A stretch of 64,000 nucleotides of DNA from a virus: IMG/VR virus record IMGVR_UViG_3300011008_000022; one strand, written 5' to 3'. Under the pieces are notes generated by a model. It ran no database searches. It was not told the DNA's origin and saw nothing but the letters and a program-made list of their open reading frames with translations. Below, piece after piece: positions 4,990 to 63,800 of the stretch. Position 1 is the first letter of the stretch, and every line of letters starts with the position of its first letter. Made by a program: the position numbers and the translations under genes.

Positions 4990-6108
4990 ATGCCTAAAAT
5001 TGAATTGTCCCTTCCCCGCTCCTGGAACCAGTGTACGCTACCTGCGCTCCGTGCTATTGCTGCCGTGCTGACTGACTGCTCGGCACGTATCGATCGCTTC
5101 CATCCTTTTGACATGATGGAGGTAAAGGTGGGGGTATTACTACGTTTAACGAATATCGAAGTGCTGGAACCAATCAACCCGCGAGTAGCGGTCGAAGAGC
5201 AATACTATACCTGCCGCCTACGTCCCTGGACTATCGATGAAGAATATAGTCGTTGGTTCCGTATGCTGCGATACTATCGCAGCTTCTGTGCTTGGTTCCG
5301 TCGCTCTGTCCTCGGACATGATGACACTTTCTCGCTATACGTGTGGCAAATCAATTACTGGCTCACTCCTCACAAAGATCAGGCAACAGGACGCATGGTG
5401 CCTGGTATGCTCGACTGGATGAATAGCGATAGTAAGAGCTTCCTTCAGCGCTTCCCGTTCCCGTCTGTCCGTCGTCGCTCTGGTAAGTGCTCTCGTAAGG
5501 TGACATTCAAGGGACCTAACACGTTTATGGATGGCTTCTCATGGCGACGCTACCGATTCGCTCAGGACTATATGCAGATGTATATCGAACAGCAAAACCA
5601 TTTGCTCGAACTGCAACAGTCTGGCAAGGTGTCGGCAAAGGACTTGCTGAAAGCAACAAAGGCCATGGATCTGTCTAAGGCGCTTTTCCTGGCTACTGTC
5701 TTCAATCGTAAGATAACATTTGTCAACGAGGAAACAGGACAGACTATCACCGATTATCATTACCAGTTTAATCAGCATTCAGATAACAGTCCTTTCTTCC
5801 GTAATTTCGACGATAAGGATTGGCAACTGGTGTGCCTATGGTGGGCGGGCATGATGCACTATTTGCATCAGACTTATCCCAAGGTGTTCAAGGTACAGAA
5901 GGTGAAAGGTAACAAGAAACCTGTCAACCCGCTCATGTTATATGCGCGTACAACGGCAACACTGGAGAAGTACCTCCACTCTACTGCAACGGACATAGAA
6001 AGGGAACCTTACTCCACCATCCTTCAGCAACTCGAAGACATCACACGTCGTAACGAGGAGATAGAAGCTGCAAACCGCAAAATGAGGGCACAATCCCGCC
6101 GTAAGTAG
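4990..6108 (+). CDS. hypothetical protein (372 aa)
   Basis: ATG 4990 after A-rich leader; stop 6106-6108 directly followed by a tandem pair of family-A hairpins. Confidence 0.75.
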   Translation: MPKIELSLPRSWNQCTLPALRAIAAVLTDCSARIDRFHPFDMMEVKVGVLLRLTNIEVLEPINPRVAVEEQYYTCRLRPWTIDEEYSRWFRMLRYYRSFCAWFRRSVLGHDDTFSLYVWQINYWLTPHKDQATGRMVPGMLDWMNSDSKSFLQRFPFPSVRRRSGKCSRKVTFKGPNTFMDGFSWRRYRFAQDYMQMYIEQQNHLLELQQSGKVSAKDLLKATKAMDLSKALFLATVFNRKITFVNEETGQTITDYHYQFNQHSDNSPFFRNFDDKDWQLVCLWWAGMMHYLHQTYPKVFKVQKVKGNKKPVNPLMLYARTTATLEKYLHSTATDIEREPYSTILQQLEDITRRNEEIEAANRKMRAQSRRK

Positions 6109-11186: not shown

Positions 11187-11753
11187 TTATCCTTCTTTCT
11201 GCTGAATGTTGGCCACGGCATCCTTAACCTCCTCCCATGCCACCATTTCCAATTTGCGAGTATCAGGATCATACTCACCAACAAAGGCAATGGCCTCATG
11301 CAAGGCATCATCGGTGCGGTCGGCAATCACAAAGAACTCGAACGGCTCAATAGGAGGCACCTGAACGGAACCAGGCACAAGACCGGCACGGACAGCACGA
11401 CGGATGCGGTCGGCTTCTGCCTTCGGCAATACAACCACCTGAGCCTTGCGCTCACGGATGGCTGCCTGCTCCAACTCACGGGCATGTTCCTCCCACTTCT
11501 CATTCTGCAACTTCCACACCATATAAAGATAGGCGTTATTCAGGAAATTACGCCAGCGCTCCCACCCTTGACCAATAAACACAACTGCCAAAGGCTCGGC
11601 AATATACAAACGACGCTCACGGGCATTCCACATCAGCATGTTCGACTCAAACAGCTGCTCTAAGTAACCAAACACGCGACTGGTTTTCACCATTTCCTTA
11701 CGCTTCTTCTTTGCGGCTCTCTTCTTACGCCACTCCTTAAAAAATCCAAACAT
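11187..11753 (-). CDS. hypothetical protein (188 aa)
   Basis: Natural-looking basic N-terminus; converges on 10389..11066 with hairpins between them; preferred over overlapping + ORF 11133..11663, which starts inside the hairpins. Confidence 0.7.
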   Translation of the reverse strand: MFGFFKEWRKKRAAKKKRKEMVKTSRVFGYLEQLFESNMLMWNARERRLYIAEPLAVVFIGQGWERWRNFLNNAYLYMVWKLQNEKWEEHARELEQAAIRERKAQVVVLPKAEADRIRRAVRAGLVPGSVQVPPIEPFEFFVIADRTDDALHEAIAFVGEYDPDTRKLEMVAWEEVKDAVANIQQKEG

Positions 11754-12728: not shown

Positions 12729-12745
12729 ATTCATAAATTCATCAA
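12722..12745 (+). repeat. TTCATMA heptamer array before a start codon
   Basis: atcataaattcataaattcatcaa, ATG at 12749. Confidence 0.75.
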
Positions 12746-21139: not shown

Positions 21140-21170
21140 TTCATCATTTCATCAATTCATCAATTCATCA
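21139..21170 (+). repeat. TTCATMA array before ATG 21175
   Basis: aattcatcatttcatcaattcatcaattcatca. Confidence 0.8.
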
Positions 21171-23735: not shown

Positions 23736-23766
23736 TTTCATCAATTCATAAATTCATCTATTCACC
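23736..23766 (+). repeat. TTCATMA array
   Basis: tttcatcaattcataaattcatctattcacc. Confidence 0.8.
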
Positions 23767-24359: not shown

Positions 24360-24395
24360 ATTCATTCATTCATTATTTCATCAATTCATCAATTC
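24358..24395 (+). repeat. TTCATMA array running into ATG 24396
   Basis: aaattcattcattcattatttcatcaattcatcaattc. Confidence 0.8.
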
Positions 24396-27511: not shown

Positions 27512-27540
27512 ATTTCATCAATTCATCAAATCATCATTCA
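27512..27540 (+). repeat. TTCATMA array before ATG 27541
   Basis: atttcatcaattcatcaaatcatcattca. Confidence 0.8.
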
Positions 27541-28398: not shown

Positions 28399-28449
28399 AT
28401 TTCATCATTTCATCAATTCATACATTCATATATTCATAAATTCATAAAA
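28399..28449 (+). repeat. TTCATMA array (longest, about 6 units) upstream of the parA promoter
   Basis: atttcatcatttcatcaattcatacattcatatattcataaattcataaaa. Confidence 0.8.
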
Positions 28450-33724: not shown

Positions 33725-34222
33725 TTATAGCTTTTTGTTCATACTAACTGTAAATCCCTGCTGTCCTTCAGGGTTCTCATCGTATATCTCAAATCCCAAC
33801 TTTCTATACCAGGGAATGAGGAAAGTCCCTTTGCGGGCACTCAGGTATATCTGTTCCAGCCCCTGCTCTCTCGCCACTCTCTCAACGCGCTTCATTAGCT
33901 GGGTACCAACACCCTTCTGTCGCTCTTCCTCCAACACCTGTAACGATGTAATGGCACCGGCATCTGTGCGCTCGTTTTCGATAGACAGCATCACCATTCC
34001 TCGGCCACCATCGACGATGATAGTAAACGATTTACCCCACCACCACAGGTTTTCGTGGATAATCTCTTTACACTGCCTTCTTTCCCATACAGAACCATGA
34101 TGAAAAAACTGCTGTGCCACACGCTTCTCTTCAGGAGAAAAGCGACTACGATATTGCTCTTCCTCTACGATGGCCTCTTGCACAGCCTGTTTCAGTTTCA
34201 TTAGCTTTTTGAAATCTACCAT
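33725..34222 (-). CDS. GNAT-family N-acetyltransferase
   Basis: LQVLEEERQKGVGTQLM (Q/RxxGxG/A acetyl-CoA motif A) and YRKLGFE motif B-like. Confidence 0.75.
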   Translation of the reverse strand: MVDFKKLMKLKQAVQEAIVEEEQYRSRFSPEEKRVAQQFFHHGSVWERRQCKEIIHENLWWWGKSFTIIVDGGRGMVMLSIENERTDAGAITSLQVLEEERQKGVGTQLMKRVERVAREQGLEQIYLSARKGTFLIPWYRKLGFEIYDENPEGQQGFTVSMNKKL

Positions 34223-55281: not shown

Positions 55282-58200
55282 ATGGCCGATAAACAGATAT
55301 ACATCAAAATCAGTGCGGATTCAGCACAACCAGTAGCAGCCGTAAAAGCCATGCGCAACGAACTGTCGCGCTTGCAGAAGGCGTATGATGCCATCAACAC
55401 GTCCACAGCTACTGGCGCTCAACGTGCCCAGAAACTGCAAAAGGAAATGGCCGACCTCCGTGCGCTCATCAAACAGCAGGAGGCTGACATGAATAAAGTG
55501 TCGAAGGTGATTACCAATCTGTCGAATGCGTCTTTGTCTCAGCTCAACCAGGCGCTTCGTCAGGTGAAAAAGGAAATCTCGCGCACCAGTGAGTCCAGCC
55601 CGAAACTGGAAGAGTTACGCCAGAAATACAAGGCTATTACCGACCAGATTAAGGTGATGAATGGCGAAATGATTAACATCAAAAAGCACATGGGCGAACT
55701 CTCCACGCAGACGGATTCCTGGCTGCAACGTGCCATCAATCAGCAGAAACAGCTGGTGGAGTCCACGCAGAAGACGAGTAGCGCTTATCAGGGACAGGTC
55801 AACATCCTACACCAACTCCAAAACGAACAGGCGCGTCGTGCTGTCTCTACCATCAGCGATGGGGGGGCTTCTGCCGATGCACTCCGCACCGCTCGTGCTA
55901 ACCTGGTGTCTTATCGCGACCAACTGGGTAAGGGTGGCATCCTGCCGGCATCGGGCAATGTGGCTACTGAGATCGAGCGCATCAATGCCGAACTGAAAAA
56001 GTGTGATGACCAACTGGACGCTATCGCTGGCAAGGAGAAACAGATTGAATTGACCACCGACCAACTCCAGCAAAAGGCTGATAATATCATCCTCGACCCC
56101 AAGAAATTCTCGCCAAAGGAGATAAAGGCTGCCATCGATGAGATTCAGAAGAAGTTGAACAACCTCGGCACGAATGATACTGCTCGTAAGAAACTCAACG
56201 AACAGATGAAGCAGCTGAAAAACATTCTCGATGGTGTCGATCACGAACTGGTGAATATCGGGGACCTCTTGAAGCCTGGCAACCTCCGCAAAGCACCACT
56301 CGAAACGCTCCAAAAGGCTGCAAAGCAGTTGGAGAATGAAATGGCAAAGCTCAACCGCGACCAACAGCAGTATATCGATAAGCAAAAACAACTCGCCGCT
56401 ATCCGTGGCGAGATAGAACGTACCACCGGCGCTATTAACCGTCAGGGGTCTGCATGGAAAACGACGTTTCGCAATATCTCTATGTACTTCGGTGTCTTCC
56501 AACTGTTTTCTATCGCTCAACAGAAACTGCAGGGGATGTTGCAAAGCAACCTGGCTTATTCTGACCAACTCGCCGACATCCGCAAGGTGACGGGTCTCGC
56601 CACCAAGGAGGTCAACGAACTATCTGACAGCCTGGCAACGCTCAACACGCGCTCTACGGTACAGGATTTGGCCGACCTCGCTTATCAAGGCGGTAAGATG
56701 GGATTCGGAAAGTACGGTGTAGAAGGCATGAGCGCATTCGTCCGCGCTGCCGACCAGGTAAAGGTGGCGCTGTCTGATGACCTCGGCGATGACAGCCTCT
56801 TGCAGATCTCCAAGCTCGTCGATACCATGGGACTGATACCTAAACTGGGTGTCGAACGTTCCATGCTTGCTGTCGGCTCATCCATCAACCAGCTTTCGGC
56901 CACTTCTACGGCATCAGGAACGCATATCGTGGACTTCGCGAAGCGCCTCACAGGTCTCTCGCGTATCACGGGTATCACAACGCCGGAACTACTGGCACTC
57001 GGCTCGGCTGCCGATGCACTTGGGCAGGCTCCTGAAGTCGCGGCCACGGCTTTCGGTAAACTCTTCACGTCGCTGCAAACCAACCACAACCTGATTGAAC
57101 AGCAGCTGAACATGGAAAAGGGCACCATCAACAACCTCTTCTCACAGGGTAAGGCGATGGAGGCTATTCTTCAAATCATGGAGAAGATGCGCGAAAAGGG
57201 TAATATGAATGCCCTCGGCAACATCTGGAAAGACCTCGGTTCTGAGGGACAGCGCCTGATAGGTGTCATGGCTACCATGTCTAAGAATGTCGATACCGTT
57301 CGTGCTCATGTCGAAGAGTCTAACGTCGCCTTTGAGGAAGCTACGTCTCTTACCAATGAGTACGCTCTGAAACAGGACACAGCCAATGCCATTCTCGAAA
57401 AGGGTAACAACCTCTGGGCAAAGGCTTTCACCAACCCTGAAGGGGTGGATATGGTCAAGCAGATGGCTCAGGCATGGTACGACCTCTCGAAGTCGATGAC
57501 TTCCAACGAGGCTTCCATGTGGATAATGAAAAATCTCCTCGGACTGATTGCTGCTGAATTGAAGATACTCCTCGCACTCCTGCCGGCAATCCTCACAGGT
57601 TTGCTCTTCAAGGGTGCCTCTGTCGCTATCATCGGCCTCGCATCGTCTATCGGACTCATGGGTAAGAATGCGGTACTCGCCACCCTGCAGACAAAGGGAT
57701 TGGTGGCTGCATGGCACGCCCTGAATACGGCTCAGAAGATGAACGTCATCGGCCTCTGTATCTCTCTTCTCACGGGTCTCGCTATCGCCATCGCTTCTGT
57801 CATCAAGAAAGGCAACGAGGCTACTACATGGATGCAGGGCTTCAATAGCACCATGTCCGACTTCAACCGTGAGTTTGCTATTGCTGACGACCGCCTGAAG
57901 CGCTTTAAGAAGGCTATCGATGATGCTGCTACTGGCTCACGTCAACGTGCAGCTGCCATCCGTAATTTCAACAAGGAATATGGGCAGTATCTCTCGAAGA
58001 TGCTCACCGAGAAATCTACGGCTGATGATATCGCCAAAGCCTATAAGGAGGTGGTGAAGCAACTCCGTGCGAAGATTGCCCTTCAGATGAAGGAAAAGGA
58101 TATCACCTCACAGGTGGCTCCTCGTGTCGGATGGTCTGCCGACCGCCTCACAGAATACGACAACGTGGCAGGTGGCTCTGCCTACAATGGCACATGGCTG

Positions 58201-61071
58201 AAAGCCTATGTCGATGACATGAGGGCTGCCGGAAAGTCTGTCGAAGATATCAATAAAGACCTGGCAAAGAAACTGGGTGTCGAAGGCAAGGTGGCTCGTG
58301 ATGCTTATAACCGCCGTTCTGATAAGACTTTGCGTACTACTTTCTTCGATCAAGAGAGTTATCGGGCACAGGCGCAATATGATATGGATGGTGGTTTTGC
58401 TGCCGCCAGAAATACGACCCGCGCCCTCACCCAAGCCGAACAGATGTTGTATGCCGCTACTCGTTATGCTACGCAGGCGTACTCCGCATCCAACGCCATG
58501 AACCGCGTCAATAAGAAGTGGAAGCCGTTTGAGGAGGACCTATCGACGGTCACTGATGAGACTCCTGGCACCCTCGACAACGATGCACCCGATAAGGAAG
58601 CCGAGAAGCGCCGCAAGGCTGAGGAAGCGGCTCGACGCAAGGCGCTCCGTGCGGAAATGAAGGAGGAACAGGCTAAGGCTCAGGCTATCGTCGATAATGT
58701 CAAGAACTACTACGAGCGTCAGATTGCTGCCATTACGGAAATGGCTACAAAGACGGGCATGGATTCTGAACTCCAGAAGAAACTCGTCGATGGTATGACC
58801 GTCCGCATGAATAATGCACTGGCTAATGTCCGTCAGGCTATCGCTGGCACTGAGAACGATTGGGCTGACTTCCGCCAGTCGATGATAAATGACCTCTACG
58901 AACCGCTGTCTGAGGATGGTACTAACCAGTCCACACAGTTGCTCGATAACATCATCCATAATGATATCGACAAACTGAAGGAAATGATTACGGTTCTCTC
59001 GAAAGAACTGGGACAGAATGGCTCTGTGCTTCTCGATCAGATATGGCGTAAGGCTACTGAGAATGAACTGAAAAACGCTAACCAACAGAACAAGGCATAC
59101 CAGGAGCGTCAGAGGGTGCTTCTGGAAAAGAACTATACGGGCAAGGTAAACCTCGACTACGAGAACCAGATGGAACAGTTTGGTGTCGCCGAACTGACCT
59201 CTGAACAGATTGCTCAGATGATGGGGTGGTCGCAGAAGGGTAACAACGAGGCTATCCAACAGTTTCTCGATGACCGTACCGAACAGTGGCAAAAGGCGTT
59301 TGCATCGGCCCGTAAGAATGTCGTTGACCTGCTCTCTGTCGATGCCAACAGTGAGGATGCACCTGATAAGGTGCTCACTATCCTCTTCGGTAAGGATTAC
59401 AAGTCTTATCTCGCCGGCACGGGCCTCTCGTCACTGCTCGATATGTCTGCCGACCAGTTCAAGGTGTTCTACCAGAAACTCATCGAATACTCTGATGCCT
59501 ATACTGATGCTCAGAAGAAAGCCTACGACGAGGCAAAACGTCGGGCGGATTTCATCTTTAATAACAATCCTACCATTCAGAGTATCGACCAGTCAACACA
59601 ACAGCTGTCAACCATCAACAGCGACCAGCAACGCTTCGAGTCTGATAAGAACATCGGACAGCAGATGGGTATGTCCTGGAACATCGATTCTGACCCCGAA
59701 ATTCTGCGCTATCGCCTGCTGGCTGAACGTGCCCGTCTCTACTATGAGGATATGGCGCGTCTGCGTGAACAGGATAAGATCTCTGAACAGCAGCTGACGG
59801 ATGCAAAGCGTCAGATGATGGAGGCTCAGTCTAACATGGCCGACCAGGTGGCTCGTAAGTTCCATGAGCGGGTGTCTCTGCTCCAGAACTTCTCCGAACC
59901 GCTGAACACCTTTGCCGAAGGGGTAGGGGAGTCGCTGGGTAACATGATCTACGACACCGAACAGTCGGATGTCAAGATGAAAGACTTGCTGAAAGACATG
60001 CTGAAGTCGTATGTGAAGATGTCGCTGCAACTTATTGCCCAGGACCTCACACGCCGTGTCACTAAGCAACTCTACTACCGTCAGGAGGAAATGGATGAGA
60101 CAATGCACCAGCAGACCATGCTGCAAATACAGCAGCTCTACCAGTCGCTGATGTTGACAGCTCAGACTACTGGCGATGCAGCGCGTCTTACACAACACGC
60201 CACATCGAATGCTACCGAACTGTCAGCAGAGGCGGGTGCTACCACTGGTAAGGTGGGCCTCGGTATTGCCGGTGGTGCAGCTAAGATCATCGGCACCCTG
60301 GGCTTCTGGGGTATTCCGCTGATTGGTGTGATTACGGCACTCTTGATGGGACTGCTCTCTTGGGCTATCGGATTGGCTTTCGGTGGCGATGACAGCGGTG
60401 CCAGTGCATCGGATGCTACGCCTAACGTCAAACTCGCCACAGGTATGTTGACGTATGACAGCGGTAACGTGCAGAGTGTGGGCAACGGTTCTCCCGTTGC
60501 TTCTCCCTCCGGCTATGCGCCCTCCGCCTCTCCTGGTGGTAGTGGTGCGCCCGCTGGTGCTGCCGGCGGGGATAGAACGCCTGTCCTCGGTTCTGATGGC
60601 TATGTCTATCAGGCTCGCCAGGTGCCACAACTGCAGACGGGTCTCGTCACGTCGCCTATCGCCACCATGGTCAACGGACAACCGTCACTGGTTGGCGAAC
60701 GTGGCCCTGAAATGGTGATTGGACGCGAGACAACAGCAGCAATGCAGATGGCACGTCCCGACCTCCTCGCGGCTATCGTGAAGTTTGATAAGAACTACTC
60801 CAATGGCCATGCCTATCGCACCTATGACGAAGGCAACCTCTCCGACTTCGCCACCGTGCCCGATGGATCTCCATCGGGTGAAGGCACTCTCACCAAAGAG
60901 GATATCGACGGACTCCGTTCTACGCTCTCCGAGTTTACAGCGGTCATGCTGGCTATCAAGCGCAACGGCCTCCATGTCAACAAGTACGGACGTGGTGGCA
61001 TCGCTCAGGAGTCGCAGGATGGCGCTAATTTCATGCGTCGTAACTCCGGCGACCGTCTCTGGAAAGGTTAG
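55282..61071 (+). CDS. tail tape measure protein
   Basis: 1929 aa; long coiled-coil regions; TP901-type core (ADLAYQGGKMGFG...SINQLSATSTASGTHIVDFAKRL...LGSAADALGQ); central hydrophobic segments; in-frame hairpin 60851-60880. Confidence 0.85.
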   Translation: MADKQIYIKISADSAQPVAAVKAMRNELSRLQKAYDAINTSTATGAQRAQKLQKEMADLRALIKQQEADMNKVSKVITNLSNASLSQLNQALRQVKKEISRTSESSPKLEELRQKYKAITDQIKVMNGEMINIKKHMGELSTQTDSWLQRAINQQKQLVESTQKTSSAYQGQVNILHQLQNEQARRAVSTISDGGASADALRTARANLVSYRDQLGKGGILPASGNVATEIERINAELKKCDDQLDAIAGKEKQIELTTDQLQQKADNIILDPKKFSPKEIKAAIDEIQKKLNNLGTNDTARKKLNEQMKQLKNILDGVDHELVNIGDLLKPGNLRKAPLETLQKAAKQLENEMAKLNRDQQQYIDKQKQLAAIRGEIERTTGAINRQGSAWKTTFRNISMYFGVFQLFSIAQQKLQGMLQSNLAYSDQLADIRKVTGLATKEVNELSDSLATLNTRSTVQDLADLAYQGGKMGFGKYGVEGMSAFVRAADQVKVALSDDLGDDSLLQISKLVDTMGLIPKLGVERSMLAVGSSINQLSATSTASGTHIVDFAKRLTGLSRITGITTPELLALGSAADALGQAPEVAATAFGKLFTSLQTNHNLIEQQLNMEKGTINNLFSQGKAMEAILQIMEKMREKGNMNALGNIWKDLGSEGQRLIGVMATMSKNVDTVRAHVEESNVAFEEATSLTNEYALKQDTANAILEKGNNLWAKAFTNPEGVDMVKQMAQAWYDLSKSMTSNEASMWIMKNLLGLIAAELKILLALLPAILTGLLFKGASVAIIGLASSIGLMGKNAVLATLQTKGLVAAWHALNTAQKMNVIGLCISLLTGLAIAIASVIKKGNEATTWMQGFNSTMSDFNREFAIADDRLKRFKKAIDDAATGSRQRAAAIRNFNKEYGQYLSKMLTEKSTADDIAKAYKEVVKQLRAKIALQMKEKDITSQVAPRVGWSADRLTEYDNVAGGSAYNGTWLKAYVDDMRAAGKSVEDINKDLAKKLGVEGKVARDAYNRRSDKTLRTTFFDQESYRAQAQYDMDGGFAAARNTTRALTQAEQMLYAATRYATQAYSASNAMNRVNKKWKPFEEDLSTVTDETPGTLDNDAPDKEAEKRRKAEEAARRKALRAEMKEEQAKAQAIVDNVKNYYERQIAAITEMATKTGMDSELQKKLVDGMTVRMNNALANVRQAIAGTENDWADFRQSMINDLYEPLSEDGTNQSTQLLDNIIHNDIDKLKEMITVLSKELGQNGSVLLDQIWRKATENELKNANQQNKAYQERQRVLLEKNYTGKVNLDYENQMEQFGVAELTSEQIAQMMGWSQKGNNEAIQQFLDDRTEQWQKAFASARKNVVDLLSVDANSEDAPDKVLTILFGKDYKSYLAGTGLSSLLDMSADQFKVFYQKLIEYSDAYTDAQKKAYDEAKRRADFIFNNNPTIQSIDQSTQQLSTINSDQQRFESDKNIGQQMGMSWNIDSDPEILRYRLLAERARLYYEDMARLREQDKISEQQLTDAKRQMMEAQSNMADQVARKFHERVSLLQNFSEPLNTFAEGVGESLGNMIYDTEQSDVKMKDLLKDMLKSYVKMSLQLIAQDLTRRVTKQLYYRQEEMDETMHQQTMLQIQQLYQSLMLTAQTTGDAARLTQHATSNATELSAEAGATTGKVGLGIAGGAAKIIGTLGFWGIPLIGVITALLMGLLSWAIGLAFGGDDSGASASDATPNVKLATGMLTYDSGNVQSVGNGSPVASPSGYAPSASPGGSGAPAGAAGGDRTPVLGSDGYVYQARQVPQLQTGLVTSPIATMVNGQPSLVGERGPEMVIGRETTAAMQMARPDLLAAIVKFDKNYSNGHAYRTYDEGNLSDFATVPDGSPSGEGTLTKEDIDGLRSTLSEFTAVMLAIKRNGLHVNKYGRGGIAQESQDGANFMRRNSGDRLWKG
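60851..60880 (+). repeat. family-A hairpin, in frame in the tape-measure gene
   Basis: ccaccgtgCCCGATGGatctCCATCGGGtg (peptide ATVPDGSPSG). Confidence 0.9.
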
Positions 61072-61101
61072 TCACCGTGCCCAGCAGTTTTCGGCTGGGT
61101 T
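61072..61101 (+). repeat. family-A hairpin, abuts the tape-measure stop codon
   Basis: tcaccgtgCCCAGCAGttttCGGCTGGGtt. Confidence 0.85.
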
Positions 61102-61102
61102 C

Positions 61103-61141
61103 TCATAAATTCATAAATTCATTAAATTATCAATTCATCAA
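61103..61141 (+). repeat. TTCATMA array before the ACP gene
   Basis: ctcataaattcataaattcattaaattatcaattcatca. Confidence 0.8.
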
Positions 61142-61144
61142 ATT

Positions 61145-61408
61145 ATGGAAGAAAAACTTTTCGCTCGTATCGTGGCGCTCCTCACCGCCCACTTCGACAA
61201 CATGCCTGCAGCCGAGGACATCCACCTCGACGACAATCTGCATGAAGACCTCAATCTCGATTCTATCGACATTGTGGACTTCATTATGATGTGTGAAACG
61301 AACTTCAACATTAAACTCGACATGACAGATGCGAAGAACACGCACACCCTGCGCGACCTCATCCGTTCTATCATCGAAGTAAAGCCCAGCCTATGCGACG
61401 CACAGTAA
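61145..61408 (+). CDS. acyl carrier protein
   Basis: 87 aa acidic four-helix pattern with the phosphopantetheine-site motif DLNLDSIDIVDFI (DSxD). Confidence 0.75.
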   Translation: MEEKLFARIVALLTAHFDNMPAAEDIHLDDNLHEDLNLDSIDIVDFIMMCETNFNIKLDMTDAKNTHTLRDLIRSIIEVKPSLCDAQ

Positions 61409-62625
61409 TCACGGGCATGGGCATCTGGTCCTGCATCGGTCAGTCCGTTCAGGAGGTGGCTCAGTCTCTCCGTCTTGGAAAGAGTGGCATCGGCATCGAT
61501 CCTGAGCGTACCGCCTACGGCTACCAATCACCCCTTACCGGCATCGTGCCGCGTCCCGACATCAAGGCTCAGGGATTGCGACGCTCTCAGCGCATCACAC
61601 TCTCCGAACCTGGTGAATATGGCTACATGGCCATGAAAGAGGCGCTGACGATGGCTCCTGTCAGCGACCTCTATCGCTGTGGCCTTATCGTCAGCAATGA
61701 CAGCACTGCTGGCGCTCTCGCTGAGACAGAGGCTATCATGGCGGAATACCATGACAGCCGACGACTGGGTGCCGGCATGGTGTTCCGCACCCTCAATAGC
61801 TCGGTATCTATGTCGCTGGCTTCCATCTTTGGCATCGGTGGCCTCACACTCTCCGTCTCTGCTGCCTGTGCCGGTGGTGGCCACGCTATCGGTCTCGCTC
61901 ATTCGCTCATTCAGTCCGGCCAACTGGACTGCTGCATTGTGGTAGGCGCTCAGGAGGTAGGACTACATGCCTATACATCCTTTGATGCACTCGGTCTCTT
62001 CAGCAAGCGTACCGACAACCCAGCAGCTGCCTCACGTCCGTTTGACACAGAGCGTGACGGCCTCGTGCCCTCTGGTGGCGCTGCCTGCGTTATCCTCGAA
62101 ACAGCCGGACATGCCGCTATGGGAAACAGAAAACCCTTGGCCATGGTCGATGGCTATGGCTTCTCCACCAGTCCCGATCTCGTTTCTCCCTCTTCCGATG
62201 CTATTTACCAGTCCATGACCGCCGCCCTATCTGCCGCCACTGTGCCCAGCGGTTCTCCGCTGGGTCCTGGTATCTCCGCTATCATGGCTCACGCTACCTC
62301 CACGCCCGATGGCGACCGTGCCGAGGCAGAAGCTATCCACCGCTTCTGTCTTGATAATGGTCTATCTCATCCTTTCGTCATCAGCACCAAGGCGCTCACA
62401 GGTCACGAGTGCTGGATGTCGGGTGTCTCTCAGATCGTCTATGCACTCATACAGATGCAAGGTGGTTTCATAGCACCAAACATCAACCTCCGCACCATCG
62501 ACCCAGCAGCAGCTACGCTACGCATTCCAACAGCGCCAACCGTCACCACGCTAACCACCGTTCTCTGCAACGCCTTCGGTTTCGGTGGCACCAACAGTAG
62601 CCTGGTAATCTCTCGCGCTGGCTAA
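61393..62625 (+). CDS. beta-ketoacyl-ACP synthase (KAS I/II, FabF/FabB-like)
   Basis: VITGMGIWS, active-site SAACAGGGHAIG (Cys), HATSTPDGDRAE (His), TGHECWMSG (His), NAFGFGGTNSSLVI; overlaps the ACP gene by 16 nt; in-frame hairpin 62237-62266. Confidence 0.85.
   Translation: MRRTVITGMGIWSCIGQSVQEVAQSLRLGKSGIGIDPERTAYGYQSPLTGIVPRPDIKAQGLRRSQRITLSEPGEYGYMAMKEALTMAPVSDLYRCGLIVSNDSTAGALAETEAIMAEYHDSRRLGAGMVFRTLNSSVSMSLASIFGIGGLTLSVSAACAGGGHAIGLAHSLIQSGQLDCCIVVGAQEVGLHAYTSFDALGLFSKRTDNPAAASRPFDTERDGLVPSGGAACVILETAGHAAMGNRKPLAMVDGYGFSTSPDLVSPSSDAIYQSMTAALSAATVPSGSPLGPGISAIMAHATSTPDGDRAEAEAIHRFCLDNGLSHPFVISTKALTGHECWMSGVSQIVYALIQMQGGFIAPNINLRTIDPAAATLRIPTAPTVTTLTTVLCNAFGFGGTNSSLVISRAG
62237..62266 (+). 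repeat. family-A hairpin, in frame in the ketoacyl synthase gene
   Basis: ccactgtgCCCAGCGGttctCCGCTGGGtc (peptide ATVPSGSPLG). Confidence 0.9.
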
Positions 62626-62655
62626 TCACCGTGCCCAGCGCCTCTCCGCTGGGCT
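62626..62655 (+). repeat. family-A hairpin, abuts the KAS stop codon
   Basis: tcaccgtgCCCAGCGcctctcCGCTGGGct. Confidence 0.9.
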
Positions 62656-62773
62656 TCGCTAACTATTCTTGTACTACCGCTCTGTCGGTAATGTCTTCAT
62701 TCGGTGGCTGTGCTGTGAAGCACGGCCACCGCCTTTCTATCATCCTCTCCATCGCTCGTCACTAATCAAAAAG

Positions 62774-63127: not shown

Positions 63128-63800
63128 CATATCTATCTACCCCGCGCCCCTCAGTGATGGCAAAAGTAATTTCGAGGATGGCATCTTTCTCCCTCTCTTT
63201 CCCCTATTTACCGCGCCTCTCCCTCATTTTTACCCTCCAAAAAGTAAAAATGACGTTATTTTGGCATACCTCATCCTAATTTTGCGAAAAATTCTTTTGA
63301 AGAAATGATAAAATCCCGTACCCTAAAAGTGATTGAGCAATAAAGCGAAAGCTCCGCTTTCTCCTTTGAGTATCAACGAGTTGTGGGGGAACGGGGTAAG
63401 CAGTTAAGCGGTGCGTTTTGCTACTTTTCAGTGTAATTTCTGAATTTCTATTTTTCTCCTGTATGCGCTAAAGTTTGTAGAGAAATGGGTAAAAATAACT
63501 TTTTACTATGATAATGTAATGAGTATCAACGACTTACACGAAAACAAAAACGTCTTTTTGATAACTTTTTCCAACTCTCCACAACTTTTACCCAGAATTT
63601 TCACCTTGCATGTTCCGATGGATGGGGCTGCAAAAAGTTATTTTGAAAGTTCAAGGAAGAAAATCTCCCCATTCAGGGAAAAATCTCCCTCGAAAGTGTT
63701 AAAACTTATATCAAATTAGAAAATAATTGGTATTTTATTTTGTAAATTCAAAGTTTATCTTTAATTTTACGGCAAAATAACAAATATAATCTCAGTTTAT

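What the first reader, a model, noticed from the sequence alone, without database searches (positions are those of the whole stretch)
61145..62625. Acyl carrier protein plus elongating ketoacyl synthase encoded directly after the tape-measure gene
The ACP has an intact DSID phosphopantetheine site. The KAS has an intact Cys-His-His triad (SAACAGG, HATST, GHE). They overlap by 16 nt and occupy the slot where distal-tail or baseplate genes usually follow a tape measure. The pair is bounded by family-A hairpins and preceded by a TTCATCA array like other phage genes, so it appears domesticated rather than a recent host fragment. Possible roles are an auxiliary metabolic function acting on host fatty-acid or lipid synthesis, or synthesis of an acyl/polyketide-like moiety for a virion or lysis component. 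No partner reductase or dehydratase is present in the window.
Basis: partly seen in the sequence, partly recalled or inferred. Interest (0 to 1): 0.7.

Follow-up and report, generated by a model that had tools for sequence, protein, structure and literature searches.

The report
Phage-borne ketosynthase and carrier-protein cassette
A family of roughly 100-kb phages of rumen and gut Bacteroidales carries a conserved two-gene cassette (an acyl carrier protein and an intact chain-elongating ketosynthase related to the host's pigment-cluster synthase); it has no other lipid enzyme, so it must plug into host metabolism, and what it makes is unknown.

Summary
The window encodes an 87-aa acyl carrier protein (61145-61408) and a 410-aa Cys-His-His ketosynthase (61393-62625), overlapping by 16 nt, directly after a 1929-aa tape-measure-like gene.

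The pair is native phage cargo:
- It recurs, always overlapping, in eight diverged lineages with ketosynthase identity down to 52%.
- dN/dS is 0.07-0.18 for the ketosynthase and 0-0.04 for the carrier protein.
- Codon usage matches the phage, not the host homologue.
- All catalytic residues and the carrier serine are invariant.

The "distal-tail slot" reading is not supported. The neighbours here are replication genes. Relatives place the cassette without a tape measure, upstream of one, or beside head genes, so it moves as a unit.

The ketosynthase is neither FabB nor FabF. Its clade is sister to the FlxC-position synthase of Bacteroidales flexirubin/aryl-polyene clusters (47-52% identity).

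The whole ~100-kb genome has no PPTase, FabD, reductase, dehydratase or acyltransferase. The most likely reading is therefore a host-dependent auxiliary elongation module. Its substrate and product are unknown.

PHROGs has no matching ketosynthase family, and I found no paper describing such a pair. I rate it a new variant of a known kind (a phage auxiliary metabolic gene), of moderate interest.

The parts
55282..61071 (+). 1929-aa tape-measure-like protein. It is the upstream neighbour, not part of the cassette.
   Evidence: PF10145 PhageMin_Tail at 40.6 bits. phrog_25337 'tail length tape measure protein' at 1e-28. Its adjacency to the cassette is lineage-specific.
61080..61099 (+). Copy of the 20-nt palindromic hairpin, between the tape-measure stop and the carrier-protein gene.
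   Evidence: Pattern found 22 times against 0.06 expected. Best local fold -13.3 kcal/mol.
61100..61144 (+). A/T-rich array of roughly 8-nt period (TTCAT[AC]A-type) directly upstream of the carrier-protein start codon.
   Evidence: Sequence read directly. The motif is enriched (59 against 21.6) and lies before many start codons in the window. L007/L015 carry an ATGAATT-type array at the same position.
61145..61408 (+). Acyl carrier protein, 87 aa, pI 4.4, with the phosphopantetheine Ser in LDSID.
   Evidence: PF00550 at E 1e-9. The Ser is invariant in all orthologues down to 37% identity. dN/dS is 0-0.04. phrog_5934 'acyl carrier protein' at 6e-7.
61393..62625 (+). Elongating beta-ketoacyl synthase (Cys-His-His type, FabB-like fold, FlxC-related), 410 aa.
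   Evidence: PF00109 plus PF02801. Full-length alignment to FabB structures with catalytic residues conserved. Catalytic residues invariant across the phage clade. dN/dS 0.07-0.18. Sister to the Bacteroidales flexirubin-cluster synthase.
62245..62264 (+). Copy of the hairpin repeat inside the ketosynthase ORF. It encodes PSGSPLGP within a lineage-specific 5-residue loop insertion.
   Evidence: The insertion is present only in the window, L004, L005 and L006. It is absent in L007, L015, L017, the host synthases and FabB.
62634..62653 (+). Hairpin repeat copy 9 nt after the ketosynthase stop codon; the downstream boundary of the cassette.
62702..62731 (+). Strong 13-bp stem-loop (-26.4 kcal/mol) followed by a pyrimidine-rich tail; terminator-like.
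   Evidence: An identical element follows the ketosynthase gene in L006.
63238..63800 (+). Conserved non-coding region upstream of the next operon (128-aa gene, primase-like, ThyX). Probably regulatory and not part of the cassette.
   Evidence: About 71% nucleotide identity to L007/L015, with parts conserved in L018, L100 and L130. No Rfam family reaches threshold.

Best explanation
The pair is a self-contained, phage-adapted auxiliary metabolic cassette: a minimal type II 'condensing enzyme plus carrier' module that can only work by plugging into host enzymes.

Proposed mechanism (inferred):
1. The two genes are co-translated from overlapping ORFs.
2. The apo-carrier protein is phosphopantetheinylated by the host holo-ACP synthase.
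3. It is loaded with malonate by the host FabD.
4. The phage ketosynthase, probably a homodimer, performs decarboxylative Claisen condensation of an acyl (or aryl-polyenoyl) thioester with malonyl-ACP.
5. The beta-ketoacyl product is passed to host reductase and dehydratase enzymes.

The net effect would be a phage-controlled chain-elongation step in the infected Bacteroidales (probably Prevotellaceae) cell. It would act on fatty-acid-derived envelope lipids or on the host's flexirubin/aryl-polyene-type outer-membrane lipid pathway, from whose FlxC-position synthase lineage the phage enzyme is most closely derived.

Shown:
- Gene integrity, conservation, selection, coupling and phage adaptation.
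- Phylogenetic placement.
- Absence of any partner enzyme in the genome.

Inferred: enzymatic activity, dependence on host PPTase, FabD and reductive enzymes, and the pathway affected.

Unknown: substrate, product and benefit to the phage.
For: Integrity and activity:
- The full Cys/His/Lys/His set and the FGFGGTN loop align with FabB. They are invariant in all phage-clade members down to 44% identity.
- The carrier Ser is invariant and all phage carrier proteins are acidic, pI 4.2-5.1.

Selection:
- dN/dS is 0.07-0.18 for the ketosynthase and 0-0.04 for the carrier protein, comparable to the tape-measure gene.

Coupling:
- The carrier-protein and ketosynthase ORFs overlap by 4-22 nt in all eight lineages examined.

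Genuine phage residence:
- More than 100 near-identical variants lie on contigs up to ~107 kb from independent samples.
- The gene order is conserved in IMG/VR contigs of ~101-104 kb.
- RSCU correlation is 0.87 with the phage gene pool and -0.12 with the Segatella homologue.
- Lineage-specific phage punctuation flanks the cassette and has even entered the ORF.

Origin:
- The phage clade (bootstrap 85) is sister to the Bacteroidales cluster synthase (joint bootstrap 91) and shares the TGHECWM[SA]G motif.
- That host synthase sits in the order TAL, KR, KS, FlxJ methyltransferase, ACP, LpxL-like acyltransferase, thioesterase, KS, ACP, KS, LolA2_flexi. This matches flxA-flxB-flxC of Chitinophaga (PMC3992019).

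Dependence on the host:
- Pfam scans of all ORFs in the window and in the remaining ~36 kb found no PPTase, FabD, KR, DH, ER, thioesterase or acyltransferase.
- Aryl-polyene clusters likewise lack FabD and borrow the fatty-acid-synthase enzyme, and they include a homodimeric stand-alone ketosynthase, ApeR (PMC12624758).
Against: - No functional data exist. The substrate, the product and even the direction of the effect (boosting, diverting or blocking host flux) are unknown.
- The phage carrier protein is not clearly related to either carrier protein of the host cluster (about 34-41% identity over about 40 residues). A direct link to the flexirubin-type pathway is therefore unproven.
- The phage clade is sister to the host clade, not nested within it. 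The donor lineage and the ancestral function are uncertain.
- The host is inferred only from MAG binning and phylogeny.
- Condensation is not generally the flux-limiting step of fatty-acid synthesis (textbook knowledge), so the selective benefit of extra ketosynthase capacity is not obvious.
- The recurrent proximity to the tape-measure gene in several arrangements is not explained by a purely metabolic role.
Confidence: 0.55

Rival explanations
1. Virion- or tail-linked function. The pair builds an acyl or polyketide group that is attached to the tape-measure protein or another structural or ejected protein, for example to help membrane insertion during DNA delivery. Alternatively the pair is itself packaged.
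For: - The cassette is next to a tape-measure gene in the window, L006, L007, L011 and L015.
- It is one gene downstream of the tape measure in L018 and one gene upstream of it in L132.
- In L017, L018 and L102 it lies beside genes whose window homologues sit in the head/packaging block, which contains a distant portal homologue.
Against: - L100, L130 and L017 have no tape measure within about 8-10 kb, and L100's upstream gap holds no tape-measure remnant.
- In the window a hairpin plus a new upstream array separates the tape measure from the carrier-protein gene.
- No acyltransferase or thioesterase that could move an acyl chain onto a protein was found anywhere in the genome.
- The two small or medium neighbours tested have no enzyme-like fold.
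- The linkage can be explained by shared ancestry plus module shuffling.
Confidence: 0.12
2. Housekeeping substitute. The phage enzyme replaces or backs up the host's essential FabF-type synthase and AcpP during infection. This would keep membrane lipid synthesis going after host shut-off, or bypass a host defence or inhibitor that targets fatty-acid synthesis.
For: - The fold and catalytic residues are those of elongating KAS I/II, and FabB is the best solved relative.
- Stand-alone phage carrier proteins are a recognised category of auxiliary gene (phrog_5934; PMC5463345).
Against: - Scores are far below the FabB and FabF equivalog cut-offs (275 against 630; 213 against 494).
- The closest cellular relatives are secondary-metabolite-cluster synthases, not primary FabF, at 47-52% against 31% or less.
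- No PADLOC match.
Confidence: 0.18
3. Metabolic sink or decoy. The pair does not make a useful product. Instead it diverts malonyl groups, or ties up host FabD, AcpS or the reductive enzymes, to arrest host lipid or pigment synthesis.
For: - No downstream processing enzymes are encoded.
- The phage carrier protein is diverged from the host carrier proteins. This could make its acyl adducts poor substrates for host enzymes.
Against: Every catalytic residue is strictly conserved over a deep clade, and selection on the whole ketosynthase is strong. That is more than a binding decoy would need. Nothing supports this reading directly.
Confidence: 0.1
4. Passenger host DNA, an assembly chimera or a mis-delimited prophage edge.
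For: Many 'phage' database records with FabB or FabF hits are exactly this. H3, for example, is E. coli fabB beside mnmC and flk. The fabG-acpP-fabF set in predicted roseobacter prophages keeps the host operon order (PMC8224337).
Against: - Phage genes flank the cassette on both sides for tens of kb.
- The same arrangement occurs in many independent assemblies.
- The cassette is conserved with 44-87% identity across phage lineages.
- Codon usage is the phage's own.
- Identity to any cellular homologue is only about 50%.
Confidence: 0.02

Closest known systems
FlxC-position beta-ketoacyl synthase of Bacteroidota flexirubin / aryl-polyene-type clusters (flxA TAL, flxB KR, flxC KS in Chitinophaga pinensis; equivalent clusters in Prevotella, Segatella, Muribaculaceae and others)
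   Same: It is the closest cellular relative, at 47-52% identity over the full length, and forms the sister clade with 91% joint bootstrap. Both share the TGHECWM[SA]G signature around the second catalytic His. Both are FabB-like rather than KS-CLF-like.
   Different: The phage gene has none of the cluster partners: TAL, KR, methyltransferase, acyltransferase, thioesterase, the other ketosynthases, LolA2/LolB2. It is fused in an operon with its own diverged carrier protein, whereas in the host a reductase gene precedes the synthase. It forms a separate clade. The host enzyme itself is biochemically uncharacterised.
FabB (KAS I) and FabF (KAS II) of type II fatty-acid synthesis
   Same: Same fold, same length and the same Cys-His-His-Lys active site. 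The best solved-structure matches are FabB proteins, at about 36% identity and E 1e-64.
   Different: It scores well below both NCBIfam equivalog cut-offs. There is no FabA partner. It branches with secondary-metabolite-cluster synthases rather than primary fatty-acid-synthase enzymes.
ApeR, the stand-alone homodimeric ketosynthase of proteobacterial aryl-polyene clusters, working with ApeE/ApeF carrier proteins and borrowed FabD
   Same: It is a working precedent for a non-CLF ketosynthase with a dedicated carrier protein that relies on housekeeping FabD (PMC12624758).
   Different: ApeR sits in a full cluster of about 18 genes. Sequence relatedness to the phage enzyme was not tested here.
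Phage-encoded acyl carrier proteins and other lipid-related auxiliary genes (phrog_5934; Erythrobacter phage vB_EliS-R6L ORF32; fabG-acpP-fabF in predicted roseobacter prophages)
   Same: A carrier protein of cellular type carried on a phage genome, with function unknown in all cases.
   Different: Isolated phages carry the carrier protein alone. The roseobacter cases keep the host operon order inside predicted prophages and may be host DNA. No PHROG family matches the ketosynthase. Here the synthase and carrier protein are translationally coupled, diverged and conserved across a deep clade of free ~100-kb phage genomes.

Membership tests
Acyl carrier protein (PF00550, type II carrier) | Match to the PP-binding domain above the curated threshold | tested here: met
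   39 bits against a cut-off of 20.8, E 1e-9.
Acyl carrier protein (PF00550, type II carrier) | Conserved Ser in the [DE]-S-[LI]-D motif at the start of helix II | tested here: met
   LDSID in the window.
Acyl carrier protein (PF00550, type II carrier) | Small acidic protein | tested here: met
   87 aa, pI 4.39, net charge -11. Orthologues have pI 4.2-5.1.
Acyl carrier protein (PF00550, type II carrier) | Post-translational 4'-phosphopantetheinylation | not testable with these tools
   No PPTase is encoded in the phage genome, so a host enzyme would be required.
Elongating beta-ketoacyl-ACP synthase (KAS I/II type, Cys-His-His) | Ketoacyl-synt N- and C-terminal domains over the full length | tested here: met
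   PF00109 at 83 bits (residues 2-238) and PF02801 at 61 bits (residues 250-366).
Elongating beta-ketoacyl-ACP synthase (KAS I/II type, Cys-His-His) | Catalytic Cys, two His, the Lys and the gating GFGG loop | tested here: met
   All align with FabB and are invariant across the phage clade.
Elongating beta-ketoacyl-ACP synthase (KAS I/II type, Cys-His-His) | Condensing activity with malonyl-ACP | not testable with these tools
   Requires an enzyme assay.
FabB (KAS I) equivalog | Score at or above the NCBIfam NF005935 cut-off | tested here: not met
   274.7 bits against a cut-off of 630.
FabB (KAS I) equivalog | Works with FabA in anaerobic unsaturated fatty-acid synthesis | tested here: not met
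   No FabA or hot-dog dehydratase domain anywhere in the phage genome. Whether the host has one was not tested.
FabF (KAS II) equivalog | Score at or above the TIGR03150 cut-off | tested here: not met
   213.3 bits against a cut-off of 493.75. Identity to the two FabF-type sequences compared (S. aureus and a human-gut fragment) is 27-29%.
FlxC-type synthase of flexirubin/aryl-polyene clusters | Falls inside the clade of cluster-borne synthases | tested here: inconclusive
   Sister clade, not nested: phage clade bootstrap 85, joint bootstrap 91. The tree is neighbour-joining only.
FlxC-type synthase of flexirubin/aryl-polyene clusters | Cluster context (TAL, KR, FlxJ methyltransferase, further KS and ACP genes, LolA2/LolB2) | tested here: not met
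   None of these is in the phage genome. All are present around the host homologues.
Type II PKS KS-CLF pair | Adjacent chain-length-factor paralogue lacking the active-site Cys | tested here: not met
   There is only one ketosynthase gene in the genome.
Phage auxiliary metabolic gene | Metabolic gene of cellular type inside a bona fide phage genome, with phage genes on both sides | tested here: met
   Tape measure, portal homologue, S49 protease, clamp, primase-like gene and ThyX surround it. Contigs recur at ~101-107 kb.
Phage auxiliary metabolic gene | Conserved in related phages under purifying selection | tested here: met
Phage auxiliary metabolic gene | Expressed during infection and alters host metabolism | not testable with these tools
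   There is no cultured host-phage pair.

The most novel reading that the evidence does not exclude
The cassette is a dedicated phage biosynthetic device, not a metabolic booster. Using host malonyl units, it would build a specific acyl or polyketide-like product. That product would either be attached to a phage protein such as the tape measure or another ejected protein, or released as a small molecule acting in phage-host or phage-phage interaction. This would be the first ketosynthase-based natural-product or lipidation step encoded by a virus of bacteria.
Probability: 0.12. Interest if true: 0.85.

Novelty: new variant of a known kind. Interest (0 to 1): 0.55.

Why it matters
Phage auxiliary genes are known for photosynthesis, nucleotide, sulfur and some lipid steps (desaturases, lone carrier proteins). 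A conserved, catalytically intact ketosynthase coupled to its own carrier protein has not been catalogued: no PHROG family matches it and I found no paper describing one.

These phages appear widespread in rumen and gut metagenomes. Hundreds of variants were found, many on near-complete ~100-kb contigs, and they are binned with Prevotellaceae.

If the module rewires envelope lipid or aryl-polyene pigment synthesis during infection, it would be a new route by which phages alter the surface chemistry and stress tolerance of dominant gut and rumen bacteria.

It would also supply a minimal, portable ketosynthase/carrier pair for enzymology. Finally, it gives a handle on the uncharacterised FlxC-type synthase of Bacteroidota pigment clusters.

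Tried and rejected
1. Cryptic partner enzyme next to the cassette.
   - The ~188-aa protein that abuts the carrier-protein gene in L017 and L132 (window homologue 11187-11753, minus strand) gave a confident model (pLDDT 86). It has no PDB fold match (best TM 0.19) and no PDB sequence-profile hit. It is not a PPTase, hot-dog or SDR enzyme.
   - The 372-aa neighbour family (window 4990-6108) gave pLDDT 88. It has no PDB match and matches only uncharacterised siphovirus proteins in BFVD.
2. Other lipid genes elsewhere in the genome. I reconstructed the ~36 kb outside the window from IMG/VR loci and scanned all ORFs there and in the window against Pfam. None was found.
3. Decayed tape-measure gene in L100's 1.6-kb ORF-free stretch. 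tblastn found nothing.
4. Non-coding RNA in the flanking intergenic DNA. Nothing reached the Rfam threshold; RAGATH-25 scored 24.8 against 49.
5. Defence or anti-defence role. No PADLOC match.
6. Annotated phage relatives. Megablast of 9 kb found none, and the putative 345-aa head protein found none. Only a distant portal hit was obtained.
7. Phage-database hits to FabB or FabF. The top annotated hit I inspected (H3) is E. coli chromosomal fabB flanked by host genes. Most other hits are unannotated records with 27-37% identity, and MT837464 groups with the host cluster synthases in the tree. None shows a phage ketosynthase.
8. The first bootstrapped tree with Biopython's distance calculator timed out. 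I redid it with numpy.
Full report
**1. Observation**

- ORF 61145-61408 encodes an 87-aa protein. It matches the phosphopantetheine-binding domain PF00550 (E 1e-9, 39 bits, cut-off 20.8) and carries LDSIDIV.
- ORF 61393-62625 encodes a 410-aa protein with both beta-ketoacyl-synthase domains (PF00109 E 3e-23; PF02801 E 1e-16).
- Against solved structures the ketosynthase aligns end to end with FabB of Vibrio and Yersinia (4xox, 3oyt; E about 1e-64). The active-site Cys (SAACAGG), first His (HATSTP), Lys and second His (STKALTGHE) and the FGFGGTN gating loop are all matched.
- The N-terminal MRRTVITG aligns with the FabB N-terminus, so the upstream ATG is the true start and the 16-nt overlap is real.
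- The upstream 1929-aa gene is tape-measure-like (PF10145 at 40.6 bits; phrog_25337 at 1e-28).
- The hairpin family and the TTCAT-type arrays are far above chance: 22 against 0.06 expected, and 59 against 21.6 expected. One hairpin lies on each side of the cassette.

**2. What the element is**

The window is part of a phage genome of about 100 kb.
- The ketosynthase occurs as more than 100 variants of at least 93% identity in ENA, JGI and Logan assemblies. Contigs repeatedly end at about 101-107 kb.
- IMG/VR holds several ~101-104-kb contigs with the same gene order.
- The window encodes a distant portal homologue and a holin-like protein. A closely related contig (ketosynthase 99% identical) carries an S49 protease in the ~36 kb outside the window.
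- It also encodes many replication and modification genes.
- No annotated GenBank phage is a close relative. Most putative structural proteins have no PHROG match.
- Related contigs are binned into rumen Prevotellaceae and Bacteroidaceae MAGs. This is the only host evidence, and it is indirect.

**3. The cassette is native and mobile within the phage lineage**

The carrier-protein and ketosynthase pair is present and overlapping (4-22 nt) in all eight carrier-first lineages examined.

| Lineage (ketosynthase identity to the window) | Arrangement around the cassette |
|---|---|
| Window, L006 (87%), L007/L011/L015 (68%) | tape measure immediately upstream |
| L018 (59%) | tape measure, 369-aa gene, then the cassette |
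| L132 (60%) | cassette, 105-aa gene, then tape measure |
| L017/L009 (68%) | a ~188-aa gene upstream and a 375-aa gene downstream; no tape measure |
| L100 (52%), L130 (55%) | among replication genes; no tape measure nearby |

- L100's ORF-free upstream stretch holds no tape-measure remnant.
- Two deeper members differ. L102 (48%) has the ketosynthase after a homologue of the window's 886-aa gene, with no carrier-protein gene upstream.
- L103 (44%), on a phage-like 55-kb contig, has a FabG-like reductase, then the ketosynthase, then the carrier protein.
- Selection is strongly purifying: ketosynthase dN/dS 0.07-0.18 and carrier protein 0-0.04 in unsaturated comparisons, similar to the tape-measure gene.
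- Codon usage is the phage's own: RSCU r = 0.87 against a mean of 0.68 for other long phage genes, and r = -0.12 against the Segatella homologue.
- The CCCAGC...GCTGGG hairpin is specific to the window's own lineage. One copy has entered the ketosynthase ORF as an in-frame loop insertion. L007/L015 carry a different A/T-rich array before the carrier-protein gene.

Together these results refute passenger DNA. They also show that tape-measure adjacency is a lineage-specific arrangement, not a defining feature.

In the window the tape-measure gene is itself flanked upstream by a sliding clamp, dUTPase, HNH and Dcm genes. The cassette is followed by 1.17 kb of non-coding DNA, then a primase-like gene and ThyX. 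The "distal-tail slot" argument therefore does not hold.

**4. What kind of ketosynthase**

- It scores far below the equivalog cut-offs for FabB (275 against 630) and FabF (213 against 494).
- A scan of one genome per GTDB species found 303 relatives. After four phage-like contigs (59-69%), the best are Bacteroidales chromosomal genes at 47-52% identity.
- In those genomes the gene lies in a conserved cluster with this order: aromatic ammonia-lyase, SDR ketoreductase, this synthase, FlxJ-family methyltransferase, carrier protein, LpxL-like acyltransferase, 4HBT thioesterase, two further ketosynthases, a second carrier protein, LolA2_flexi, LolB2 and a GT2 glycosyltransferase.
- FlxJ scores 604 bits against a cut-off of 560, and LolA2_flexi scores 197 bits against a cut-off of 125.
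- This is a flexirubin/aryl-polyene-type cluster. The lyase, reductase, synthase order equals flxA, flxB, flxC of Chitinophaga pinensis (PMC3992019).
- In a bootstrapped neighbour-joining tree the phage clade (85%) is sister to this Bacteroidales clade (joint 91%). Both lie inside a FabB-like super-clade, away from FabF and from the clusters' other ketosynthases.
- Both clades share TGHECWM[SA]G where FabB has TGHSLGAAG.
- The phage carrier protein is not clearly related to either cluster carrier protein.
- L103's reductase is 42% identical to the Segatella FlxB-position reductase. This is compatible with an ancestral capture of a reductase-synthase pair. The evidence is weak, however, because SDR reductases are commonly about that similar to one another (my own knowledge).

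**5. No partners**

- I rebuilt the ~36 kb outside the window from IMG/VR loci of a contig whose ketosynthase is 99% identical.
- I scanned all 36 ORFs there, and 62 ORFs of the window, against Pfam.
- None has a PPTase, malonyl transacylase, ketoreductase, dehydratase, enoyl reductase, thioesterase, AMP-ligase or lipid acyltransferase domain.
- Two conserved neighbours that might have hidden such an activity gave confident models with no enzyme-like structural match.
- One caveat: only 25 of the 31 Pfam families hit in the window scan were displayed. The six hidden ones are single weak hits.

**6. Mechanism**

The best-supported reading is a host-dependent auxiliary elongation module.
- The coupled carrier protein is made holo by the host PPTase and malonylated by host FabD.
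- The phage ketosynthase condenses an acyl or aryl-polyenoyl thioester with that malonyl unit.
- Host reductive enzymes finish the cycle.

Aryl-polyene clusters give a precedent for each dependency. They use a stand-alone homodimeric ketosynthase (ApeR) and borrow FabD from primary metabolism (PMC12624758). By phylogeny, the pathway touched is more likely the flexirubin/aryl-polyene-type outer-membrane lipid route than bulk fatty-acid synthesis. This point is inference only.

The rivals are a tail- or virion-linked acylation, a housekeeping KAS/ACP substitute, and a metabolic sink. They are set out with their evidence in the rival-explanations section.

**7. Novelty**

- Lone phage carrier proteins are known but unexplained (phrog_5934; PMC5463345).
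- fabG-acpP-fabF in host operon order has been reported only in predicted roseobacter prophages (PMC8224337).
- No PHROG family matches this ketosynthase.
- Full-text searches found no description of a phage ketosynthase/carrier pair or of flexirubin-type synthases in phages.
- I rate it a new variant of a known kind (a phage auxiliary metabolic gene). Interest is moderate: the evidence of function-under-selection is solid, the phage group appears widespread in rumen and gut metagenomes, and the role is unknown.

Noticed in passing
window, 22 sites, e.g. 1461, 6117, 6154, 9785, 11165, 54636, 54669, 61080, 62634, 62774, 63108: A 20-nt palindromic hairpin (consensus CCCAGCCGTTCTCGGCTGGG) occurs 22 times against 0.06 expected, almost always just after a gene. 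It is present in the window and in L006 but absent from the 68%-identity relatives (L007, L015, L017) and deeper lineages. It is therefore a young, lineage-specific punctuation element.
   Followed up: partly
window 62245-62264: One copy of that hairpin lies inside the ketosynthase ORF. It encodes PSGSPLGP and coincides with a 5-residue surface-loop insertion found only in this lineage. This suggests the repeat can insert into, or arise within, coding DNA and be tolerated in frame.
   Followed up: partly
window, e.g. 12730-12744, 21140-21170, 23737-23751, 24377-24391, 27514-27528, 28401-28447, 61100-61144: Arrays of TTCAT[CA]A with an 8-nt period sit directly upstream of many start codons (59 motif copies against 21.6 expected). 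L007/L015 show the reverse-complement motif (ATGAATT) at the equivalent place. They may be a leader or translation-initiation signal, or a promoter-proximal element.
   Followed up: partly
window 63238-63800: The distal half of the 1.17-kb gap after the ketosynthase gene is conserved at about 71% nucleotide identity in lineages whose ketosynthase protein is 68% identical. It contains a conserved GGTAAAAA-TAAC-TTTTTACC hairpin and AACTTTT repeats. The 66-aa ORF called there (63519-63719) is not conserved in L007. It is probably a regulatory region, or an origin, for the downstream primase-like/ThyX operon. No Rfam match.
   Followed up: partly
window 55282-61071: The 1929-aa tape-measure-like gene lies among replication and nucleotide-metabolism genes, about 46 kb from the portal-containing block at the start of the window. 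In relatives it occupies different positions, so it also behaves as a movable unit.
   Followed up: partly
window 4990-6108 and 11187-11753 (minus strand): Two conserved phage protein families (372 aa and 188 aa) gave confident AlphaFold models (pLDDT 88 and 86). Neither has a structural relative in the PDB. One 372-aa-family member (P0396) is fused to GH108 lysozyme and PG-binding domains.
   Followed up: yes
L103 9318-11423: A phage-like 55-kb contig carries a FabG-like ketoreductase, a ketosynthase (44% identical to the window's) and a carrier protein in a row. They sit next to a glucosaminidase and an OmpA-like gene. This is a three-gene version of the module.
   Followed up: partly
L106/L123/L108 (the ~36 kb of the genome outside the window): The remainder of the genome encodes a Tad2-like (anti-Thoeris) domain protein, a reverse transcriptase, Dam and N6/N4 methylases, ThyX, an S49/NfeD-type protease and a weak radical-SAM hit.
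   Followed up: no
phage database hit H3 (NC_049343.1); also H10 (AGRM01000005.1, a Salmonella WGS contig): One 'phage' record that matches FabB is bacterial chromosomal DNA: 'Escherichia phage 500465-2' contains E. coli fabB flanked by mnmC and flk. H10 is itself a Salmonella whole-genome shotgun contig held in the phage collection. The other hits (Listeria, Enterococcus, Staphylococcus records) are unannotated and were not inspected. This is a caution for surveys of auxiliary metabolic genes.
   Followed up: partly
window 33725-34222 (minus strand): A GNAT-family acetyltransferase (165 aa) is the only other acyl-transfer-type enzyme in the genome. Nothing links it to the cassette.
   Followed up: no
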